Part shown: piece after piece, positions 4,518 through 28,396 of the stretch
Numbering within the stretch: position 1 is the stretch's first letter
How the letters are laid out: the number at the start of each line of letters is the position of its first letter
Sequence record: PZ445437.1
Strand: one strand, 5' to 3'
Origin: a phage
Length of the DNA: 64,000 nucleotides
Notes under the pieces: model-generated
Seen by the model: the letters and a program-made list of their open reading frames with translations, nothing else
Told to the model about the DNA's origin: nothing
Databases searched by the model: none
Position numbers and translations under genes: made by a program

Positions 4518-4942
4518 TGCTTCTGATCCCTGAAACTCATGAATTAGTTCTCGAGAATGTCGAAGCACTTATTCCTGAAGCACAGGGTCGCTTTGACGAA
4601 TTGTCTTCTGCTTTAAATAAAGACGATATAAATACAATTGTCGAGAATATGCTTGATGATGAAACTGATTTAGCGGTTGCATTAGCTTCTATTAATGAAA
4701 ATATGCCGTTAAATGAATTCATCGTTAAACATGTTTCCGCCCGTGGTGAAATTACTCGCACTAAAGACCGCAAAACGCGTGAACGTAATGCATTTCAAAC
4801 CACTGGGCTGTCTAAAGCAAAACGTAGACAAATTGCTCGTAAAGCTACCAAAACGAAGATTGCCAATCCAGCAGGTCAATCTCGTGCTCAGCGTAAGCGT
4901 AAAAAAGCTCTTAAACGCCGTAAAGCATTAGGATTAAGCTAA
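4517..4942 (+). CDS. 68: prohead core protein gp68
   Basis: 141-aa ORF; position and sequence as T4 gp68; basic C-terminus. Confidence 0.9.
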
Positions 4943-5580
4943 TGAATGAACCCCAATTACTAATTGAAACTTGGGGTCAACCTGGCGAAATTATTGATGG
5001 CGTGCCAATGCTTGAATCTCACGATGGAAAAGACTTAGGTTTAAAACCGGGTTTATACATCGAAGGAATATTCATGCAAGCGGAAGTTGTCAATAGAAAT
5101 AAACGTCTTTATCCAAAACGCATATTAGAAAAAGCGGTAAAAGACTATATTAATGAGCAAGTTTTAACTAAACAAGCTCTCGGAGAATTAAATCATCCTC
5201 CACGCGCTAATGTTGACCCAATGCAAGCCGCTATCATTATAGAAGATATGTGGTGGAAAGGAAATGACGTATACGGACGAGCTCGTGTTATTGAAGGTGA
5301 CCATGGTCCTGGAGATAAATTAGCAGCTAATATTCGTGCCGGATGGATTCCAGGAGTTTCTTCTCGTGGATTAGGTTCATTGACTGACACAAATAAAGGT
5401 TATCGTATCGTAAACGAAGGATTCAAATTAACTGTAGGTGTTGATGCAGTATGGGGTCCAAGTGCTCCAGATGCATGGGTAACTCCTAAGGAAATTACCG
5501 AATCACAGACGGCGGAAGCCGATACAAGTGCCGATGACGCCTATATGGCTCTCGCAGAGGCCATGAAAAAAGCGTTATAA
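4942..5580 (+). CDS. 21: prohead core protease gp21
   Basis: 212-aa ORF recognised as T4 gp21 ([42 protein letters not shown]...). Confidence 0.95.
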   Translation: MNEPQLLIETWGQPGEIIDGVPMLESHDGKDLGLKPGLYIEGIFMQAEVVNRNKRLYPKRILEKAVKDYINEQVLTKQALGELNHPPRANVDPMQAAIIIEDMWWKGNDVYGRARVIEGDHGPGDKLAANIRAGWIPGVSSRGLGSLTDTNKGYRIVNEGFKLTVGVDAVWGPSAPDAWVTPKEITESQTAEADTSADDAYMALAEAMKKAL

Positions 5581-23621: not shown

Positions 23622-23625
23622 CAAT

Positions 23626-23655
23626 GGGGACCGAAAGGTCCCCATATTTTTATTT
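23626..23655 (+). terminator. rho-independent terminator after gene 54
   Basis: GGGGACC-GAAA-GGTCCCC hairpin + ATATTTTTATTT. Confidence 0.7.
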
Positions 23656-23940
23656 ACGGAATGAAATAAAAGCAGCAACTGAAGCAACTAAACTGTCTTC
23701 AATATAAACTTCAATTTTTACCGGAGCTTCTGACTCAAATTTACCTGTTACTACACCTTGGAAAATGCTTTCAGTCTGTTCTGGCTTTGAAAAATTTTCA
23801 GAAGGAAAAATTCCGAACTTTTTATCTGTTCCAAAAATTTTGATAAATTCATCATAAACTGCTTCATTAAAAGCGTTATCAGCAGGAATAACGCCTTCAA
23901 CTACAAGTTCTTGACCTAAAAAGCGTAAAGAAGATTTCAT
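23650..23940 (-). CDS. hypothetical protein (T4 alt.-3 position)
   Basis: 96-aa ORF with ATG and GAGGA SD, downstream of the Alt genes. Confidence 0.75.
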   Translation of the reverse strand: MKSSLRFLGQELVVEGVIPADNAFNEAVYDEFIKIFGTDKKFGIFPSENFSKPEQTESIFQGVVTGKFESEAPVKIEVYIEDSLVASVAAFISFRK

Positions 23941-23971: not shown

Positions 23972-24000
23972 ATTATAACACAACACGAGGGACTTGTAAA
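23972..24000 (-). promoter_or_regulatory. sigma70-type early promoter (TTTACA-17-TATAAT) for the alt.-3-position gene
   Basis: minus strand GTTTACA agtccctcgtgttgtgt TATAAT; 54-bp cassette duplicated at 39254-39307. Confidence 0.65.
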
Positions 24001-26058
24001 CTACATCTTGAACTTTTTAGACATTCCGTTGATGTTAACCAAAGAAGCCAAGATTTGAGAAACTTCGTTTTCCTCTTCTTTTGATTCTTCTACAAGGAAT
24101 TGATTAAACCCGGCCATTGGACGAACTTCGCCAGTTTCCATTAGATGATCGCCATCATATACCGATTCTTCTAATTGTTCAGAAGGAGGAACGATTGTGC
24201 CTTCGATTAGATACTTGTTATAAGCAGTTTCTTTCATCATGTACGTGCTTACTTTATTAATCTTCAACAAAATTCCACGCGGTAGAATAACTTCAGCTTC
24301 TGATGGAAATCCTGATAAATGACCTGGAACGATAACTTTGATTCGCTCAGCTCCTTTAATTACCATACCCACGCTAGTTTCAGCATCTTCATTAGCATAT
24401 GTAGAATGACTACCCATATGCATCAAATCTTCTGCATCAACAGAACCTTCTCCTTCGCCAGAAAATACTGCACCGGAATCATCTAGAGCCATATAGTTTT
24501 TACCATGCTCACCGAAGATATTTGGTTTAAGTGATGTCGATACGAAGTTCTTGAAATAGAACATTTTATTTTCAATATTGTGACGCAAAGTTTTAAAGGT
24601 AACTTCTTGTCCACGGTAAAGTGTAGTTCCTGGAGGAAGAACTGAACCTTTAGCGAATGCAGAATCCAGCGTCTCAATATGTTTAATAGCTCGTTCCATA
24701 TATTCTTCACGGGTAGAATCTGGTTTACCCAAAAGGAACGAGTTCATTTCAACATATGAATCTGCGCAATAATCTTCAATTACGTCAGATTCAGCCTGAG
24801 TTAATCCTTTTGGAGTTACTTCAGTACTTGCATATTCATATGCCTGAGCGGCAGATTCATTAATCAATTTATAAATGCCATTCATGACAAATTGAATAAT
24901 AGCTGTCTTTTCATCTGGCGTAGCTTTAGAACCTTTAACTAAATCATTGATAATTTTCTTAATAACATCAAAACTATTAGAAATATTAATATCAGCAAGA
25001 TCGCTTAAAATTTTATCAGTTTTATAATCAAAGAATTCTTTATTCTTTAAATATTCTTGAGAACCTTGATATGATGTATCGCTCTGCAACTTGATAGATG
25101 GATCACGTAAACGCGCATGGGCTAATGCAATATGATTTCGGAAGTTTTCTAGTTCATAATCGTTAGATTTAAAACGAGAAGCACTTCTCATACCACCGAT
25201 AGCTCCTTTGCCGAAGTTTGAACCAATCTGAATAACGCCAGAGTTCATTGGTCCTTCTGCTTTATATACCGGAACTTTGGATTCAAACTCTTGATATTTC
25301 TTAGCAGCGAAGCTATCACCCTGAAGTGAAGCATCAACAGTAGAATATTGAGCTTGTGCTGCTAATCGACGACTAATTTTAGTTTTCTGAATAACAGCTT
25401 GATCCGTGCGCTTATCATTTTCCAAAGCAATAGAAGCAGCAACTGCGACAGCTTTAGGAACAGCATTACCTGTTTTAACGTCTACATAAACATCACCAAC
25501 CTTTGATTCAACTTTTGTGAATAACTCAGTTGAAATAGGAGGTACACCTGGAATGTCTTCTAAATTGGCATTTTTACGGTAAACCATAATATATGCATAT
25601 TTCTTATCATAGTCCCAGATTTCCTTTAAAAGAACATATCGACCTGCTCCTTTAGTACGTACTAAACGGTCAGCAATAACTTGCATTTGACGAGCAGCGC
25701 CATTTGTTTTACTCTTTAGTACGCGGAATAAGCATGCATCAATTTTATACTGTTTCATTGTTTGAAGAGCAGTATCAAAAACAGCATTAATGACGCCAAT
25801 TGGATTTCCACCCAAGTTTTTAAGCTTAACTAATGATAGTTTCTCATTAACACCTATCATTACGATATGCATCATTTTGTCGCCTGGCTTAACGTTTTTA
25901 TTCGTATCACCGCCAGAGGTGTATGTACAAAATCTAAATCCAGGAAGCACGCTTTCTTCACCGGCTTGAATAGCAAAAATTTGTGGTATTTTATGCTTAG
26001 GATTTAAGTTAACAACCGGCGCCGAAGCGCCGTCAAATAATTCTGTAATAAGTTCCAT
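24001..26058 (-). CDS. Alt-like ADP-ribosyltransferase, second paralog (packaged internal protein type)
   Basis: 685-aa ORF; N-terminus MELITELFD...NLNPKHKIPQIF near-identical to Alt; C-terminal R (LYRGQ), FVSTSL and EAEVILPRG motifs. Confidence 0.85.
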   Translation of the reverse strand: MELITELFDGASAPVVNLNPKHKIPQIFAIQAGEESVLPGFRFCTYTSGGDTNKNVKPGDKMMHIVMIGVNEKLSLVKLKNLGGNPIGVINAVFDTALQTMKQYKIDACLFRVLKSKTNGAARQMQVIADRLVRTKGAGRYVLLKEIWDYDKKYAYIMVYRKNANLEDIPGVPPISTELFTKVESKVGDVYVDVKTGNAVPKAVAVAASIALENDKRTDQAVIQKTKISRRLAAQAQYSTVDASLQGDSFAAKKYQEFESKVPVYKAEGPMNSGVIQIGSNFGKGAIGGMRSASRFKSNDYELENFRNHIALAHARLRDPSIKLQSDTSYQGSQEYLKNKEFFDYKTDKILSDLADINISNSFDVIKKIINDLVKGSKATPDEKTAIIQFVMNGIYKLINESAAQAYEYASTEVTPKGLTQAESDVIEDYCADSYVEMNSFLLGKPDSTREEYMERAIKHIETLDSAFAKGSVLPPGTTLYRGQEVTFKTLRHNIENKMFYFKNFVSTSLKPNIFGEHGKNYMALDDSGAVFSGEGEGSVDAEDLMHMGSHSTYANEDAETSVGMVIKGAERIKVIVPGHLSGFPSEAEVILPRGILLKINKVSTYMMKETAYNKYLIEGTIVPPSEQLEESVYDGDHLMETGEVRPMAGFNQFLVEESKEEENEVSQILASLVNINGMSKKFKM

Positions 26059-26061
26059 GAT

Positions 26062-28158
26062 TTATCCTTGAACGAACTTGTAAGGCATGTTTGTAATATC
26101 TATGCAAGACGCAATAATTCCAAGAGATGATTCTACTTTCTGTTTAACGTTTGATGAAACAAATGATGCAAAGTCAACTCTGTCTTCTATTTCAATATCA
26201 CCTGTCATTGCAACTACTTCGCCGGTTTCCATTAAATGGTCTCCATCATAGATTACCGATTCGGTGAGCTCTTCCGTGGTCATAACTTCAGCTTGAATGA
26301 GTTTTGTATTATTAGACGTGGTTCCGTCATTATTAGAAGCATCAGTTATTTTATTAACTTTGACCATCAATCCGCGCGGTAGAATAACTTCAGCTTCTGT
26401 TGCTATTCCGAGACTTCCTGGATATACAACATTAACTTTATGAGCTCCATCAATTGCCCATCCTATTTGAACTTTAACGTATTCAGGATTTTCTTTATAC
26501 GCTCTTATTTCGTTTGGATTAATAGTTATTCCTTCTTCATTTTTATCAACTGTCAATTCATTACGAGCTTCTGGTTCTAAAAGACCAATACCAGCATGTG
26601 TAATTCCAAAACGTCCAAAAATGATAGGAGTTAAAGAAGTAGATACAAAATTTCTGAAATAGAACACTTTATTTTTAACTAGTGCTTCGTATATAGGAGC
26701 AGTCATACTTTGAGCACGATAAACTGTGATGCCTTCCGGTATGCGGTCACCATTTTCAAAAGCTGAATCTAAGTTATTTATAGCAGATTCAATTTCTTTT
26801 TCACTCATTACATCATATCGTTCTGGATTGTAACGACCTAAAAGAAGATTATTGATGTCAGTATATCCTGAACCACAATATTCTCTAATGCCACGCTTTT
26901 GTGATGGAGTATATTTAGAACCATCGCGGGCAATAGTAATATCAATCATTGGACCAGCACCAATTCCAGAAAAACTGTAAATCATTCGTTTGAGGAATTT
27001 AGTTTTTGCTGCGTTCCAGGAATTTTTAGTTATTTCTTCCCAGACTTCATCTGGTTGTCCTTTACGATTTTTATTATGATTAGCAAGCCATTTATCTTTA
27101 TAATCTTCAAAGAATTGATTTACAGCTGCTGCGTATTTCTCTAAACATTTTATTGAAGTAGTTGGTTCATTTTTAATTGCATTAAAAATTACTTCTTTAA
27201 TTTTTTCTGAAACTTCACCGACTTGACTCATTGGAAAGAATTTATAATCATAGTGAAGTTCATCTGCCGTTCCTTCAGCAATAATTTTTGCTGCCTTTGT
27301 TTTAGAAGCTAATGAATTAATTCCAATTTTCATTTCTTCTGCTTCGGGAATTAAAGGTGCAGTAGCAGGTTTATTGAAATTAGCTGCGGTAGATTCATAC
27401 TTCTGGAATAATTCACTTTCAAATCTAGAAGATTCCAATGATTGACTTTGCGCAATTGCTCTACGGGAAATTTTAACTTTAACGATTACAGCTTGGTCAG
27501 AACGTTTATCATTTTCTTGTGCAATAGATGCTGCAATTGCCTCATTTTTAGTTACTTGAGCTCCAGTATCTTTATTGATATAAACATCGCCGACTTTCGA
27601 TTCAACTTTAGTAAAGAGCTCGGTACTAATTTCCGGAACTCCTGGAATGTCTTCTAGTGATACATTTTTGCGATGTATAAGAATATATGCATACTTTTTA
27701 TCATAATCCCAGAGTTCCTTAAGAAGGACGTATCTGCCACCTGAACGACTACGGATAAGTCTATCAGCAATAACTTGAATTTGTCGAGCTTGACCAGCGG
27801 TTTTAGACTTAAGAATACGAAGCATACAAGCATCAATTTTATACTGACGCATTGTTTGCATTGCAACAGTAAAAACTGAATTGATATAATTAATTGGGCT
27901 TGGACCGAGACCTTTTAATTTAGCAATTGAACCTTTGGCAGTTAATGTAAAAGGAACAATATGCATCATTTTATCGCCCATCTTTAAATCGCGATTAGTA
28001 TCACCTCCAGATGTATAGGTGCATAAACGAAAGCCTGGTTGTTCAATTGCATCATCAACACGAACTGAAAAAATTTGCGGTATTTTCTTCTTTGGATTTA
28101 AGTTTGTAATCGGAAGAGTAGTATCTTCGTCAAATAATTCTGTAATAAGTTCCATCAT
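26062..28158 (-). CDS. alt: Alt ADP-ribosyltransferase
   Basis: 698-aa ORF MMELITELFDEDTTLPITNLNPKKKIPQIFSV... recognised as T4 Alt; R (VYRAQ), FVSTSL, EAEVILPRG motifs. Confidence 0.93.
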   Translation of the reverse strand: MMELITELFDEDTTLPITNLNPKKKIPQIFSVRVDDAIEQPGFRLCTYTSGGDTNRDLKMGDKMMHIVPFTLTAKGSIAKLKGLGPSPINYINSVFTVAMQTMRQYKIDACMLRILKSKTAGQARQIQVIADRLIRSRSGGRYVLLKELWDYDKKYAYILIHRKNVSLEDIPGVPEISTELFTKVESKVGDVYINKDTGAQVTKNEAIAASIAQENDKRSDQAVIVKVKISRRAIAQSQSLESSRFESELFQKYESTAANFNKPATAPLIPEAEEMKIGINSLASKTKAAKIIAEGTADELHYDYKFFPMSQVGEVSEKIKEVIFNAIKNEPTTSIKCLEKYAAAVNQFFEDYKDKWLANHNKNRKGQPDEVWEEITKNSWNAAKTKFLKRMIYSFSGIGAGPMIDITIARDGSKYTPSQKRGIREYCGSGYTDINNLLLGRYNPERYDVMSEKEIESAINNLDSAFENGDRIPEGITVYRAQSMTAPIYEALVKNKVFYFRNFVSTSLTPIIFGRFGITHAGIGLLEPEARNELTVDKNEEGITINPNEIRAYKENPEYVKVQIGWAIDGAHKVNVVYPGSLGIATEAEVILPRGLMVKVNKITDASNNDGTTSNNTKLIQAEVMTTEELTESVIYDGDHLMETGEVVAMTGDIEIEDRVDFASFVSSNVKQKVESSLGIIASCIDITNMPYKFVQG

Positions 28159-28178
28159 AGCCTCTCTAGTGTTTATTC

Positions 28179-28186
28179 TATTTATA
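28179..28186 (-). promoter_or_regulatory. late promoter TATAAATA (minus strand) for alt
   Basis: plus TATTTATA; ~20 nt upstream of alt ATG. Confidence 0.6.
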
Positions 28187-28191
28187 AAATT

Positions 28192-28209
28192 AAAGGCCCG
28201 AAGGCCTTT
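28192..28209 (-). terminator. hairpin between ligase-proximal ORF and alt (candidate early-transcript terminator)
   Basis: AAAGGCC-CGAA-GGCCTTT stem-loop; weak U-tract on minus strand. Confidence 0.35.
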
Positions 28210-28396
28210 AATAATCTATTGGTAAGAGAGTACGATATATTTCAAACTTTGGACCTTTTTCATAAGCATCAAAAGTTTCTGTGAATTTATTATAAGCATA
28301 TGCATCTATAAATTCAATCATGATTTGTGATACAGAAGTAGAAACATCTCCACCTTCTTTTTGAGCCACGACAATTGTTTCTAAGTAAGCTTTCAT
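28208..28396 (-). CDS. hypothetical small protein between DNA ligase and alt
   Basis: 62-aa ORF, ATG overlapping ligase stop (ATGA). Confidence 0.6.
   Translation of the reverse strand: MKAYLETIVVAQKEGGDVSTSVSQIMIEFIDAYAYNKFTETFDAYEKGPKFEIYRTLLPIDY

What the first reader, a model, noticed from the sequence alone, without database searches (positions are those of the whole stretch)
24001..28158. Two full-length Alt-type ADP-ribosyltransferase genes in tandem
Seen: adjacent same-strand ORFs of 698 aa (26062-28158) and 685 aa (24001-26058), separated by 3 nt. Their first ~40 residues are near-identical (MELITELFD..NLNPK.KIPQIF). Both keep the three catalytic elements near the C-terminus: the Arg in TLYRGQ/TVYRAQ, FVSTSL, and EAEVILPRG. 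The central ~300 residues diverge strongly. A late promoter (TATAAATA, 28179-28186) precedes only the first gene. Established: T4 Alt is packaged in the head, trimmed by the gp21 prohead protease, injected with the DNA, and ADP-ribosylates host RNA polymerase and other proteins. Inference: the shared N-terminus is the capsid-targeting/processing signal, so both proteins are probably packaged and injected; the divergent middle suggests different host targets. I recall T4 having only short alt.-1/alt.-2 ORFs at this position, so this phage may carry an intact paralog where T4 has remnants; that recollection is not verified.
Basis: partly seen in the sequence, partly recalled or inferred. Interest (0 to 1): 0.6.

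Follow-up and report, generated by a model that had tools for sequence, protein, structure and literature searches.

The report
Two tandem Alt ADP-ribosyltransferase genes
This T4-like phage carries two adjacent, intact genes for Alt-type enzymes, which T4 packs into its head and injects to modify host proteins; this is the usual, already annotated state of T4's close relatives, and T4 itself is the exception that has lost most of the second copy.

Summary
Window 26062-28155(-) encodes AltA (697 aa from the T4-equivalent second ATG) and 24001-26058(-) encodes AltB (685 aa), 3 nt apart. They are 42% identical, so this is not an assembly duplicate. Both match the Alt family full length and keep the Arg / Ser-Thr-Ser / Glu-x-Glu catalytic residues.

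T4 alt.-1 and alt.-2 are 95-98% identical to AltB residues 1-116, and T4 lacks about 1.7 kb of the gene.

It is not new. An intact AltB body occurs in 401 of the 542 phage records that match the locus, including T2, T6 and RB14 (there named "alt.-2"). The T4-type deletion occurs in 91 records. A Dhakavirus has the same ordered pair, so the duplication predates that genus split. AltB is under strong purifying selection (dN/dS 0.03-0.05).

Both proteins keep T4 Alt's two mapped gp21 cleavage motifs (ITE-6; LTE/LEE at about 631). The window's gp21 is 99.5% identical to T4's.

The central 180 residues of the paralogs share no detectable sequence similarity.

Best reading: two co-transcribed late genes for injected arginine ADP-ribosyltransferases with different targets. 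Packaging, activity and targets of AltB remain untested.

The parts
26062..28155 (-). altA, ortholog of T4 alt (697 aa from the second ATG; the ORF extends to 28158 with one extra Met)
   Evidence: ORF list. phrog_802 E=8e-273 over full length. Pfam PF03496 E=1e-37. 100% identical to T4 Alt over residues 1-~235 and 70.6% overall. dN/dS 0.02-0.10 against RB14, T2 and T6.
24001..26058 (-). altB, the full-length Alt paralog (685 aa); called 'alt.-2' in RB14 and T6; intact form of T4 alt.-1 + alt.-2
   Evidence: ORF list. phrog_802 E=5e-256 over full length. PF03496 E=3.5e-20. 42% identical to AltA. T4 alt.-1 and alt.-2 are 95% and 98% identical to its residues 1-56 and 62-116. dN/dS 0.03-0.05.
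28179..28186 (-). T4 late-promoter motif TATAAATA upstream of altA
   Evidence: The motif occurs 18 times in the window against 8.8 expected.
28189..28212 (-). Hairpin (10-bp stem, UUCG loop, then a U-rich tail) overlapping the alt.1 stop codon; terminator-like, and it separates the gene 30/alt.1 unit from the alt promoter
   Evidence: RNA fold -13.5 kcal/mol, z=-3.4.
28161..28166 (-). Shine-Dalgarno GAGAGG for altA, 5 nt before the second ATG
26065..26069 (-). Shine-Dalgarno AAGGA for altB, 6 nt before its ATG and inside the last codons of altA; the junction has no stable structure
   Evidence: Junction fold z=-0.5.
26775..26782 (-). Second TATAAATA on the coding strand, inside altA (codons A-I-N-N 458-461); candidate internal late promoter for altB
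   Evidence: Conserved in RB14, T2 and T6; absent from T4 and from Dhakavirus dhaeg. Function untested.
28138..28146 (-). AltA I4-T5-E6, the N-terminal gp21 cleavage motif
   Evidence: The T4 site ITE-6 is reported in PMC5694885.
26041..26049 (-). AltB I4-T5-E6, the N-terminal gp21 cleavage motif; the first 27 nt of altB are identical to altA
   Evidence: E6 is invariant in 43 sequences.
26260..26268 (-). AltA L630-T-E632, counterpart of the T4 Alt C-terminal gp21 site LTE-619
   Evidence: The predicted mature protein is 7-632, 70.1 kDa.
24166..24174 (-). AltB L629-E-E631, counterpart of T4 LTE-619; followed by the invariant YDGDHLMETGE
   Evidence: The predicted mature protein is 7-631, 69.1 kDa.
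24292..24615 (-). AltB catalytic core: R482 (24613-24615), S507-T-S509 (24532-24540), E587-A-E589 (24292-24300)
26389..26718 (-). AltA catalytic core: R480 (26716-26718), S505-T-S507 (26635-26643), E587-A-E589 (26389-26397)
24793..25350 (-). AltB central all-helical module (residues 237-422), a type specific to AltB
   Evidence: No similarity to any AltA centre. 45% identical to the centre of Dhakavirus AltB. No Pfam hit. Helical in the AF2 model.
26902..27444 (-). AltA central all-helical module (residues 238-418), a T2-like allele
   Evidence: 92% identical to T2, 65% to Dhakavirus AltA and only 36% to T4 Alt. Helical in the AF2 model.
23624..23645 (.). Bidirectional terminator hairpin between alt.-3 and gene 54; probable end of the alt transcription unit
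   Evidence: RNA fold -17.5 kcal/mol, z=-4.0.
4942..5577 (+). Gene 21 prohead protease, the trans-acting enzyme expected to process both Alt proteins
   Evidence: tblastn gives 99.5% identity to T4 gp21 over 212/212 residues.

Best explanation
altA and altB are an ancient tandem duplicate pair in the Alt family of T-even phages.

**Proposed mechanism**
- Both genes are transcribed late as one unit: late promoter at 28179-28186, then altA, altB and alt.-3, ending at the terminator at 23624-23645. Each gene has its own ribosome-binding site.
- Each protein has four parts:
  - a conserved ~235-residue N-terminal alpha/beta domain;
  - a paralog-specific, all-helical central module of about 180 residues;
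  - a C-terminal arginine-type (R / S-T-S / E-x-E) mono-ADP-ribosyltransferase domain;
  - short terminal propeptides.
- I infer the following steps:
  - The phage's gp21 protease trims them after E6 and after E632 (AltA) or E631 (AltB), leaving proteins of about 70 and 69 kDa.
  - Both are injected with the DNA.
  - They ADP-ribosylate different sets of host proteins, with the non-homologous central modules (plus variable loops in the catalytic domain) setting target choice.

**T4 and its near relatives**
T4 lost AltB through two lesions. One is a 1.69-kb deletion between 9-of-10-nt direct repeats (CTAAARAGT). The other is a frameshift.

**Shown versus inferred**
- Shown: gene structure, homology, motif and residue conservation, purifying selection, distribution, and the nature of the T4 lesion.
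- Inferred: co-transcription, packaging, processing, injection, enzymatic activity and distinct targets.
For: **Family membership and catalytic residues**
- Full-length matches to phrog_802 and to PF03496. Relatives also carry PF26846 'Tevenvirinae_ADPRT'.
- R, S-T-S and E-x-E are invariant in 43 sequences.
- The AF2 models (pLDDT 76 and 77) share one architecture.
- The catalytic domain matches arginine-specific Vis and the C3, VIP2 and iota toxins.

**Evidence that both genes are functional**
- dN/dS for AltB is 0.03-0.05 at dS 0.12-0.20. For AltA it is 0.02-0.10.
- The intact AltB body is present at >=90% nucleotide identity in 401 phage records. The protein is >=95% identical in 396 records.
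- The same ordered pair with a 3-nt gap occurs in Dhakavirus dhaeg. Orthologous identities are 63% (A) and 51% (B), against 35-39% cross-identity.

**Processing**
- T4 Alt is cut at ITE-6 and LTE-619, giving 68.2 kDa (PMC5694885). My coordinates reproduce 68.2 kDa.
- AltA and AltB keep ITE4-6 and LTE or LEE at the aligned position. E6 and E631 are invariant.
- gp21 is 99.5% identical to T4's.

**Expression signals**
- Promoter, SD sequences, no terminator or structure at the altA/altB junction, and a terminator after alt.-3.

**Central modules**
- No detectable similarity between the A and B types. Each type is conserved across genera.

**T4 lesion**
-.
Against: - No direct evidence that AltB is in virions. 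The one virion proteome found for a phage with both genes (fD1; g200 = AltB, g201 = AltA) is illegible for those rows in the held supplement.
- About 91 records, T4 included, do without AltB. It is therefore dispensable, at least on some hosts.
- T4 Alt itself is non-essential (PMC9026906).
- 'Different targets' rests only on sequence divergence. Both central modules are predicted helical and could be structurally analogous.
- The experimentally studied Alt (T4) has a central module only 36% identical to this window's AltA. Even AltA's targets are therefore extrapolated.
Confidence: 0.6

Rival explanations
1. AltB is an active ADP-ribosyltransferase that is not packaged. It would act inside the producing cell late in infection, more like ModA and ModB than Alt. 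Alternatively it would act only as a scaffold-associated protein that is degraded.
For: - No virion evidence for AltB was obtained.
- An internal TATAAATA in altA could give altB its own expression level.
- The L/I-x-E motifs are short and could be kept for other reasons.
Against: - The first 9 residues, including the ITE-6 site, are identical to AltA even at nucleotide level (27/27 nt).
- The C-terminal cleavage motif and the following YDGDHLMETGE block are invariant across both paralogs.
- The whole N-terminal domain is conserved at 55-82%.
- Natural hybrids carry the AltA N-terminal segment on an AltB body. This suggests the N-terminal region is functionally interchangeable.
Confidence: 0.15
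2. AltB is redundant with AltA and is on its way to being lost. The tandem pair would then be a dispensable duplicate with no separate role.
For: - T4 and about 91 records carry the deletion.
- Some assemblies have a single A/B hybrid gene in place of the pair.
- T4 alt mutants are viable.
Against: - dN/dS of 0.03-0.05 with dS up to 0.20 is not relaxed selection.
- The pair is retained in both Tequatrovirus and Dhakavirus, each with paralog-specific central modules.
- 401 of the 542 records that match the locus keep an intact AltB body.
- The central modules are not detectably similar, so simple redundancy is unlikely.
Confidence: 0.15
3. AltB is a specialised counter-defence effector. Once injected, it would ADP-ribosylate a host immunity or toxin protein rather than the transcription apparatus.
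For: - From my own knowledge, not checked here: T4 Alt has been reported to modify the MazF toxin.
- A survey of viral NAD+/ADP-ribose systems describes most viral ARTs as fast-evolving, which it takes to suggest a role in biological conflicts (PMC9503650).
- The locus is polymorphic for presence or absence of AltB.
- The neighbouring gene alt.-3 can mutate to block the CmdTAC defence (PMC11618068).
Against: - No target is known and no defence-system link was found in the literature searched.
- AltB is unusually uniform (>=95% amino-acid identity in 396 records). That is not the pattern expected of a gene in a fast arms race.
- AltA's centre, by contrast, shows allelic module replacement.
Confidence: 0.1
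4. The duplication is an assembly or annotation artefact.
For: None beyond the identical first 9 codons.
Against: - 42% amino-acid and 65% nucleotide identity, with no shared 31-mers.
- The same structure occurs in hundreds of independent genomes.
Confidence: 0

Closest known systems
T4 Alt (gpAlt, NP_049811), the head-packaged, injected NAD+:arginine mono-ADP-ribosyltransferase
   Same: - AltA is its positional ortholog.
- Residues 1-~235 are 100% identical and the C-terminal ~90 residues are 85-92% identical.
- It has the same R / STS / ExE residues and the same ITE-6 and LTE cleavage motifs.
- AltB shares the whole architecture at 41-46% identity.
   Different: - AltA's central module is only 36% identical to T4's. 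It is closer to the AltA centres of T2 (92%) and Dhakavirus dhaeg (65%).
- The segment between STS and ExE carries an 11-residue insertion.
- AltB's central module has no detectable similarity to either AltA centre type, window/T2 or T4.
- Target data exist only for the T4 protein.
T4 alt.-1 (61 aa) and alt.-2 (67 aa)
   Same: They are 95% and 98% identical to AltB residues 1-56 and 62-116. The T4 record annotates them as an old duplication of the first part of alt.
   Different: - They are remnants.
- Lesion 1: a 1-nt frameshift near codon 55.
- Lesion 2: a 1.69-kb deletion between CTAAAGAGT (codons ~114-117) and CTAAAAAGT (codons ~679-682).
- The window carries the intact gene.
Full-length 'alt.-2' / second 'Alt-like RNA polymerase ADP-ribosyltransferase' of RB14, RB32, T2, T6, phiD1 g200 and about 400 other Tequatrovirus records
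   Same: 98-99% amino-acid identity to AltB, with the same position, length and 3-nt spacing.
   Different: Nothing of note. The window's gene is one more copy of this known but uncharacterised ortholog group.
Alt paralog pairs in other T4-like phages (Dhakavirus dhaeg_62/63; 44RRORF187c/188c and RB49ORF183c in Nolan et al. 2006)
   Same: - Tandem alt duplicates next to gene 30 and gene 54.
- The dhaeg pair is orthologous copy for copy.
   Different: Only 51-63% identity to the window's proteins. The RB49 and 44RR relationships were not examined here.
R-S-E clade bacterial mono-ADP-ribosyltransferase toxins (Vis, C3, VIP2, iota-Ia, CDTa, Certhrax)
   Same: - The R / STS / ExE signature is present.
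   Different: - Sequence identity is 14-25%.
- Delivery is by phage head ejection, not by secretion or a binary toxin partner.
T4 ModA and ModB
   Same: Phage-encoded arginine ADP-ribosyltransferases that act on host RNA polymerase or translation proteins.
   Different: - About 200-aa early proteins made after infection.
- Neither appears in the lists of T4 head-core proteins read here.
- They lack the Alt N-terminal and central regions. Not compared by sequence here.

Membership tests
Alt family of Tevenvirinae (phrog_802; PF26846 N-terminal domain + PF03496 ART domain) | Full-length sequence match to the family profile | tested here: met
   phrog_802: AltB E=4.6e-256 (residues 1-685) and AltA E=7.7e-273 (residues 1-696). 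PF03496 is above the gathering score for both. PF26846 is precomputed on close homologs but is absent from the local Pfam copy.
Alt family of Tevenvirinae (phrog_802; PF26846 N-terminal domain + PF03496 ART domain) | Genomic position between gene 30/alt.1 and alt.-3/gene 54, on the late-transcribed strand behind a TATAAATA promoter | tested here: met
Alt family of Tevenvirinae (phrog_802; PF26846 N-terminal domain + PF03496 ART domain) | gp21 processing motifs at both termini (T4: ITE-6 and LTE-619) | tested here: met
   AltA has ITE4-6 and LTE630-632. AltB has ITE4-6 and LEE629-631. The Glu residues are invariant in 43 sequences. This shows that the motifs are present, not that cleavage occurs.
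Alt family of Tevenvirinae (phrog_802; PF26846 N-terminal domain + PF03496 ART domain) | Incorporation into the prohead core (about 40 copies in T4) and ejection into the host | not testable with these tools
   This needs virion proteomics or injection assays. The fD1 virion table is illegible for g200 and g201.
Alt family of Tevenvirinae (phrog_802; PF26846 N-terminal domain + PF03496 ART domain) | ADP-ribosylation of RNA polymerase alpha Arg265 and other host proteins | not testable with these tools
   Known for T4 Alt only (PMC2988021).
R-S-E clade arginine-specific mono-ADP-ribosyltransferases (C2/C3/VIP2/Vis-like) | Catalytic Arg, Ser-Thr-Ser and Glu-x-Glu (ARTT loop) motifs | tested here: met
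   AltA R480, STS505-507, EAE587-589. AltB R482, STS507-509, EAE587-589. All are invariant.
R-S-E clade arginine-specific mono-ADP-ribosyltransferases (C2/C3/VIP2/Vis-like) | ART fold | tested here: met
   [not shown]
R-S-E clade arginine-specific mono-ADP-ribosyltransferases (C2/C3/VIP2/Vis-like) | NAD+-dependent transfer to arginine | not testable with these tools
   Inferred from the E-x-E motif, on established knowledge of the clade.

The most novel reading that the evidence does not exclude
AltB is a second head-packaged, injected ADP-ribosyltransferase. Its private central module directs it to host targets that T4 Alt does not modify, possibly a defence or stress-response protein. Under this reading, classical T4 is a natural altB null. 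Part of the T2/T6-versus-T4 difference in host takeover or defence sensitivity would then trace to this gene. The conserved N-terminal domain plus the two propeptides would form a swappable packaging module, as the natural AltA(N)/AltB(C) hybrids suggest.
Probability: 0.35. Interest if true: 0.55.

Novelty: already known. Interest (0 to 1): 0.3.

Why it matters
Almost all that is known about injected phage ADP-ribosyltransferases comes from T4. At this locus T4 is atypical in two ways. It has lost the second paralog, and its Alt has a central module only 36% identical to the common allele found in this window and in T2.

Most natural T-even phages probably deliver two such enzymes. The second one, AltB, is conserved and under strong purifying selection. 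I found no functional study of it in the literature available to me.

This gives an easy experimental opening: T2, T6 or RB14 knockouts, virion mass spectrometry and ADP-ribosylome comparison. As a genomic observation, however, it is already recorded in GenBank annotations and in Nolan et al. 2006.

Tried and rejected
- **Assembly duplication.** Rejected: 42% amino-acid and 65% nucleotide identity, with no shared 31-mers.
- **Virion proteomics for AltB.**
  - The fD1 (phiD1) paper reports 113 particle-associated proteins.
  - The machine-read Table S3 is illegible between g189 and g203, which hides g200 and g201.
  - That dataset also lists DNA ligase as particle-associated, so it would have been weak evidence in any case.
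- **Papers not held.**
  - Koch et al. 1995 (PMC6134386) and Miller et al. 2003 (PMC150520) could not be read.
  - What Koch & Rüger said about T2 and T6 alt could therefore not be checked.
  - The T6 record X69894 (2169 nt) lists only alt under the match.
- **Search for 'alt.-2' in the paper library.** One relevant paper only.
- **PDB sequence search with AltB.** No hit.
- **NCBIfam.** No hit.
- **Pfam on the isolated central modules and the N-terminal domain at E<=10.** Nothing meaningful; the best was CesA at E=0.02, below cut-off.
- **Papers on injected anti-restriction proteins and bNACHT11.** No mention of Alt.
- **Link between the AltA allele type and AltB loss.** Not strict: slur08 has a T2-like AltA centre together with the T4-type deletion. 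I did not pursue this further.

Full report
**1. The observation**

The window holds two same-strand ORFs, 26062-28158(-) of 698 aa and 24001-26058(-) of 685 aa. They are separated by ATC at 26059-26061. I call them AltA and AltB.

They align end to end at 42% identity, E=7e-161. The first 750 nt are 65% identical and the two genes share no 31-mer. This is a real pair of diverged paralogs, not an assembly duplicate.

Both exceed the Pfam gathering score for PF03496, the ADP-ribosyltransferase exoenzyme family. Both match phrog_802, 'Alt-like RNA polymerase ADP-ribosyltransferase', over their full length.

- AltA: R480, S505-T-S507, E587-A-E589.
- AltB: R482, S507-T-S509, E587-A-E589.

These positions are invariant in a 43-sequence family alignment. 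TATAAATA lies at 28179-28186(-).

Four details need correcting:
- **Start of AltA.** The SD sequence GAGAGG sits 2 nt from the first ATG and 5 nt from the second. T4, RB14, T2 and T6 all begin at MELITE. AltA is therefore most likely 697 aa, starting at 28155.
- **N-terminal similarity.** Only the first nine residues are identical, and residues 1-40 are 55-60% identical. Paralog similarity extends to about residue 235 and is highest (75-82%) around residues 120-200.
- **Size of the divergent core.** It spans about 180 residues and shows no detectable similarity (BLASTP E=5).
- **A second promoter motif.** Another TATAAATA lies on the coding strand inside altA at 26775-26782. It is conserved in RB14, T2 and T6 but absent from T4 and from a Dhakavirus. 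The statement that a late promoter precedes only the first gene therefore needs a caveat.

**2. What it is**

The window is part of a Tequatrovirus genome. The locus is 98.5% identical to Escherichia phage AV122, and 542 phage records match it.

The gene order is 30 (ligase), alt.1, altA, altB, alt.-3, then a convergent gene 54. This is the T4 order.

- T4 has alt (682 aa), then alt.-1 (61 aa) and alt.-2 (67 aa). The T4 record annotates these two as an old duplication of the first part of alt.
- T4 alt.-1 and alt.-2 are 95% and 98% identical to AltB residues 1-56 and 62-116. T4 lacks window ~24021-25710.
- At nucleotide level the T4 remnant shows a 1-nt frameshift near codon 55. It also shows a 1.69-kb deletion whose ends lie in a 9-of-10-nt direct repeat: CTAAAGAGT at codons ~114-117 and CTAAAAAGT at codons ~679-682.

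The arrangement is the norm rather than a peculiarity of this phage:
- The part of altB that T4 lacks is present at >=90% nucleotide identity in 401 records.
- The AltB protein is >=95% identical in 396 records.
- These include T6, T2, RB14 and RB32 (both 'alt.-2') and phiD1 (g200). The T6 record notes 'apparent insertion in alt.-2; also similar to alt'.
- RefSeq already names both genes 'Alt-like RNA polymerase ADP-ribosyltransferase'.
- The T4-type deletion junction is contiguous in 91 records, among them wild isolates such as slur03 and slur14. It is an old polymorphism, not a laboratory artefact.
- Nolan et al. 2006 (PMC1524935) already listed alt paralogs in T4, RB49 and 44RR.

**3. Age of the duplication and selection**

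Dhakavirus dhaeg has the same ordered pair with a 3-nt gap. Its upstream copy is 63% identical to AltA and its downstream copy 51% identical to AltB. Cross-comparisons give 35-39%. The duplication therefore predates the Tequatrovirus/Dhakavirus split, and both copies have been kept since.

Among the window, RB14, T2 and T6, AltB has dN/dS of 0.03-0.05 at dS 0.12-0.20. AltA has 0.02-0.10. Both are under strong purifying selection, which argues against AltB being a decaying duplicate.

**4. Anatomy**

AlphaFold2 models of AltB (mean pLDDT 76) and AltA (77) show the same layout:
- a disordered N-terminal ~10 residues;
- an alpha/beta domain to about residue 195;
- connecting helices to about residue 240;
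- an all-helical central module, about residues 250-415;
- the ART domain, about residues 417-625;
- a low-confidence C-terminal tail.

The central modules fall into two unrelated sequence types:
- **A-type.** The window's module is 92% identical to T2, 65% to Dhakavirus AltA and 36% to T4 Alt.
- **B-type.** The window's module is 45% identical to Dhakavirus AltB.
- No significant similarity was found between the two types.

AltA is 100% identical to T4 Alt over residues 1-~235 yet only 14-32% identical over residues 260-420. The T4 protein on which all biochemistry rests therefore carries a different central allele from the one in this window and in T2.

**5. Processing and packaging (inferred)**

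The T4 head literature read here establishes the following:
- T4 Alt is a prohead-core protein of about 40 copies (PMC9958956).
- It is ejected into the host (PMC9026906).
- gp21 trims it after ITE-6 and after LTE-619, giving a 68.2 kDa mature protein (PMC5694885). My coordinates reproduce 68.2 kDa for T4 residues 7-619.

Both window proteins keep ITE4-6. At the aligned C-terminal site AltA has LTE630-632 and AltB has LEE629-631. These predict mature proteins of 70.1 and 69.1 kDa.

E6, E631 and the block just after the C-terminal site (YDGDHLMETGE), as well as a terminal KF, are invariant or nearly so across both paralogs. The window's gene 21 protease (4942-5577) is 99.5% identical to T4's.

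The one virion proteome I found for a two-gene phage was unreadable at the relevant rows.

**6. Expression (inferred)**

- A 10-bp UUCG hairpin (28189-28212, -13.5 kcal/mol) ends the gene 30/alt.1 unit just before the late promoter.
- altB has its own SD, AAGGA, 6 nt upstream of its ATG. No structure or terminator lies at the junction.
- The next strong terminator is the bidirectional hairpin at 23624-23645, after alt.-3.
- The simplest model is a late altA-altB-(alt.-3) transcript.

**7. Most likely function and its rivals**

| Reading | Confidence |
|---|---|
| Two injected arginine mono-ADP-ribosyltransferases that share a packaging and processing framework and a catalytic domain, but differ in a target-selecting central module | ~0.6 |
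| AltB is active but not packaged | ~0.15 |
| AltB is redundant and being lost | ~0.15 |
| AltB is a dedicated counter-defence effector | ~0.1 |
| Assembly or annotation artefact | 0 (excluded) |

The redundancy rival is disfavoured by the selection and cross-genus retention data. The counter-defence rival has no direct support.

**8. Novelty**

- The genomic feature is already known and annotated.
- The window's proteins are 98-100% identical to their RB14, T2 and T6 counterparts.
- What remains open is the biology of AltB. I found no functional study of it in the searchable library.
- Interest is therefore modest: a correct, well-read observation of an ordinary locus, with one clear experimental opening.

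Noticed in passing
window 23972-24000 (-): A strong sigma-70-type promoter match lies directly after the altB stop codon and upstream of alt.-3 (23650-23940, DUF5498). The sequence is TTTACA, 17 nt, TATAAT with a TG extension, matching 11 of 12 positions. T4 retains this sequence downstream of its deletion. In T4, C-terminal extensions of Alt.-3 give escape from the CmdTAC defence system (PMC11618068).
   Followed up: partly
L007 5001-7055; L006 5001-7061; proteins P0003, P0004, P0005, P0007: Natural hybrid genes have an N-terminal segment 100% identical to AltA, up to about residue 40, 90, 170 or 205. The rest is AltB. In a 65-kb Logan contig (L007) one hybrid gene sits alone between alt.1 and alt.-3. 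This is the pattern expected from unequal recombination between the tandem paralogs. altA and altB share no 31-mer in the window, so an assembler join is unlikely, though not excluded.
   Followed up: partly
window 26902-27444 (-), AltA residues 238-418: AltA's central module is 92% identical to T2 and 65% to Dhakavirus AltA, but only 36% to T4 Alt. The flanking N-terminal 235 residues are 100% identical to T4. This points to allelic module replacement within the orthologous alt gene. By megablast, 103 records carry the window-type allele (>=95%) and 214 a T2/RB32-type allele (90-95%).
   Followed up: partly
window 28129-28155 and 26032-26058 (-); also nt 1757-1781 of both genes: The first 27 nt (MELITELFD) of altA and altB are identical, although the surrounding DNA is about 65% identical. 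A second identical run of 25 nt covers TEAEVILPR in the catalytic site. This suggests a nucleotide-level constraint or local gene conversion.
   Followed up: no
window 26775-26782 (-): TATAAATA lies on the coding strand inside altA, about 720 nt upstream of altB. It is conserved in RB14, T2 and T6 and absent from T4 (which lacks altB) and from Dhakavirus dhaeg (which has altB). It is a possible internal late promoter or a chance match.
   Followed up: partly
L001 5066-5451 (T4 alt.-1/alt.-2) compared with window 24001-26058: The T4 deletion ends lie in 9-of-10-nt direct repeats: CTAAAGAGT at altB codons ~114-117 and CTAAAAAGT at codons ~679-682. A separate 1-nt frameshift near codon 55 creates the alt.-1/alt.-2 split. 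The same deletion junction is contiguous in 91 phage records.
   Followed up: yes
window 28208-28396 (-): alt.1 (62 aa) matches Pfam PF24647 'Phage blade protein' over its full length (E=7.5e-29). Its stop codon lies inside the UUCG hairpin that precedes the alt late promoter.
   Followed up: no
AltB residues 634-644 and 682-683; AltA residues 636-646 and 693-694: The C-terminal propeptide, which is removed in T4 Alt, contains the most conserved short block outside the catalytic site (YDGDHLMETGE) and a near-terminal KF. Both are invariant or nearly so in all 43 aligned sequences of both paralogs. The block includes a further L-x-E motif (LME). Its role is unknown; targeting, tethering or auto-inhibition are possibilities.
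   Followed up: no
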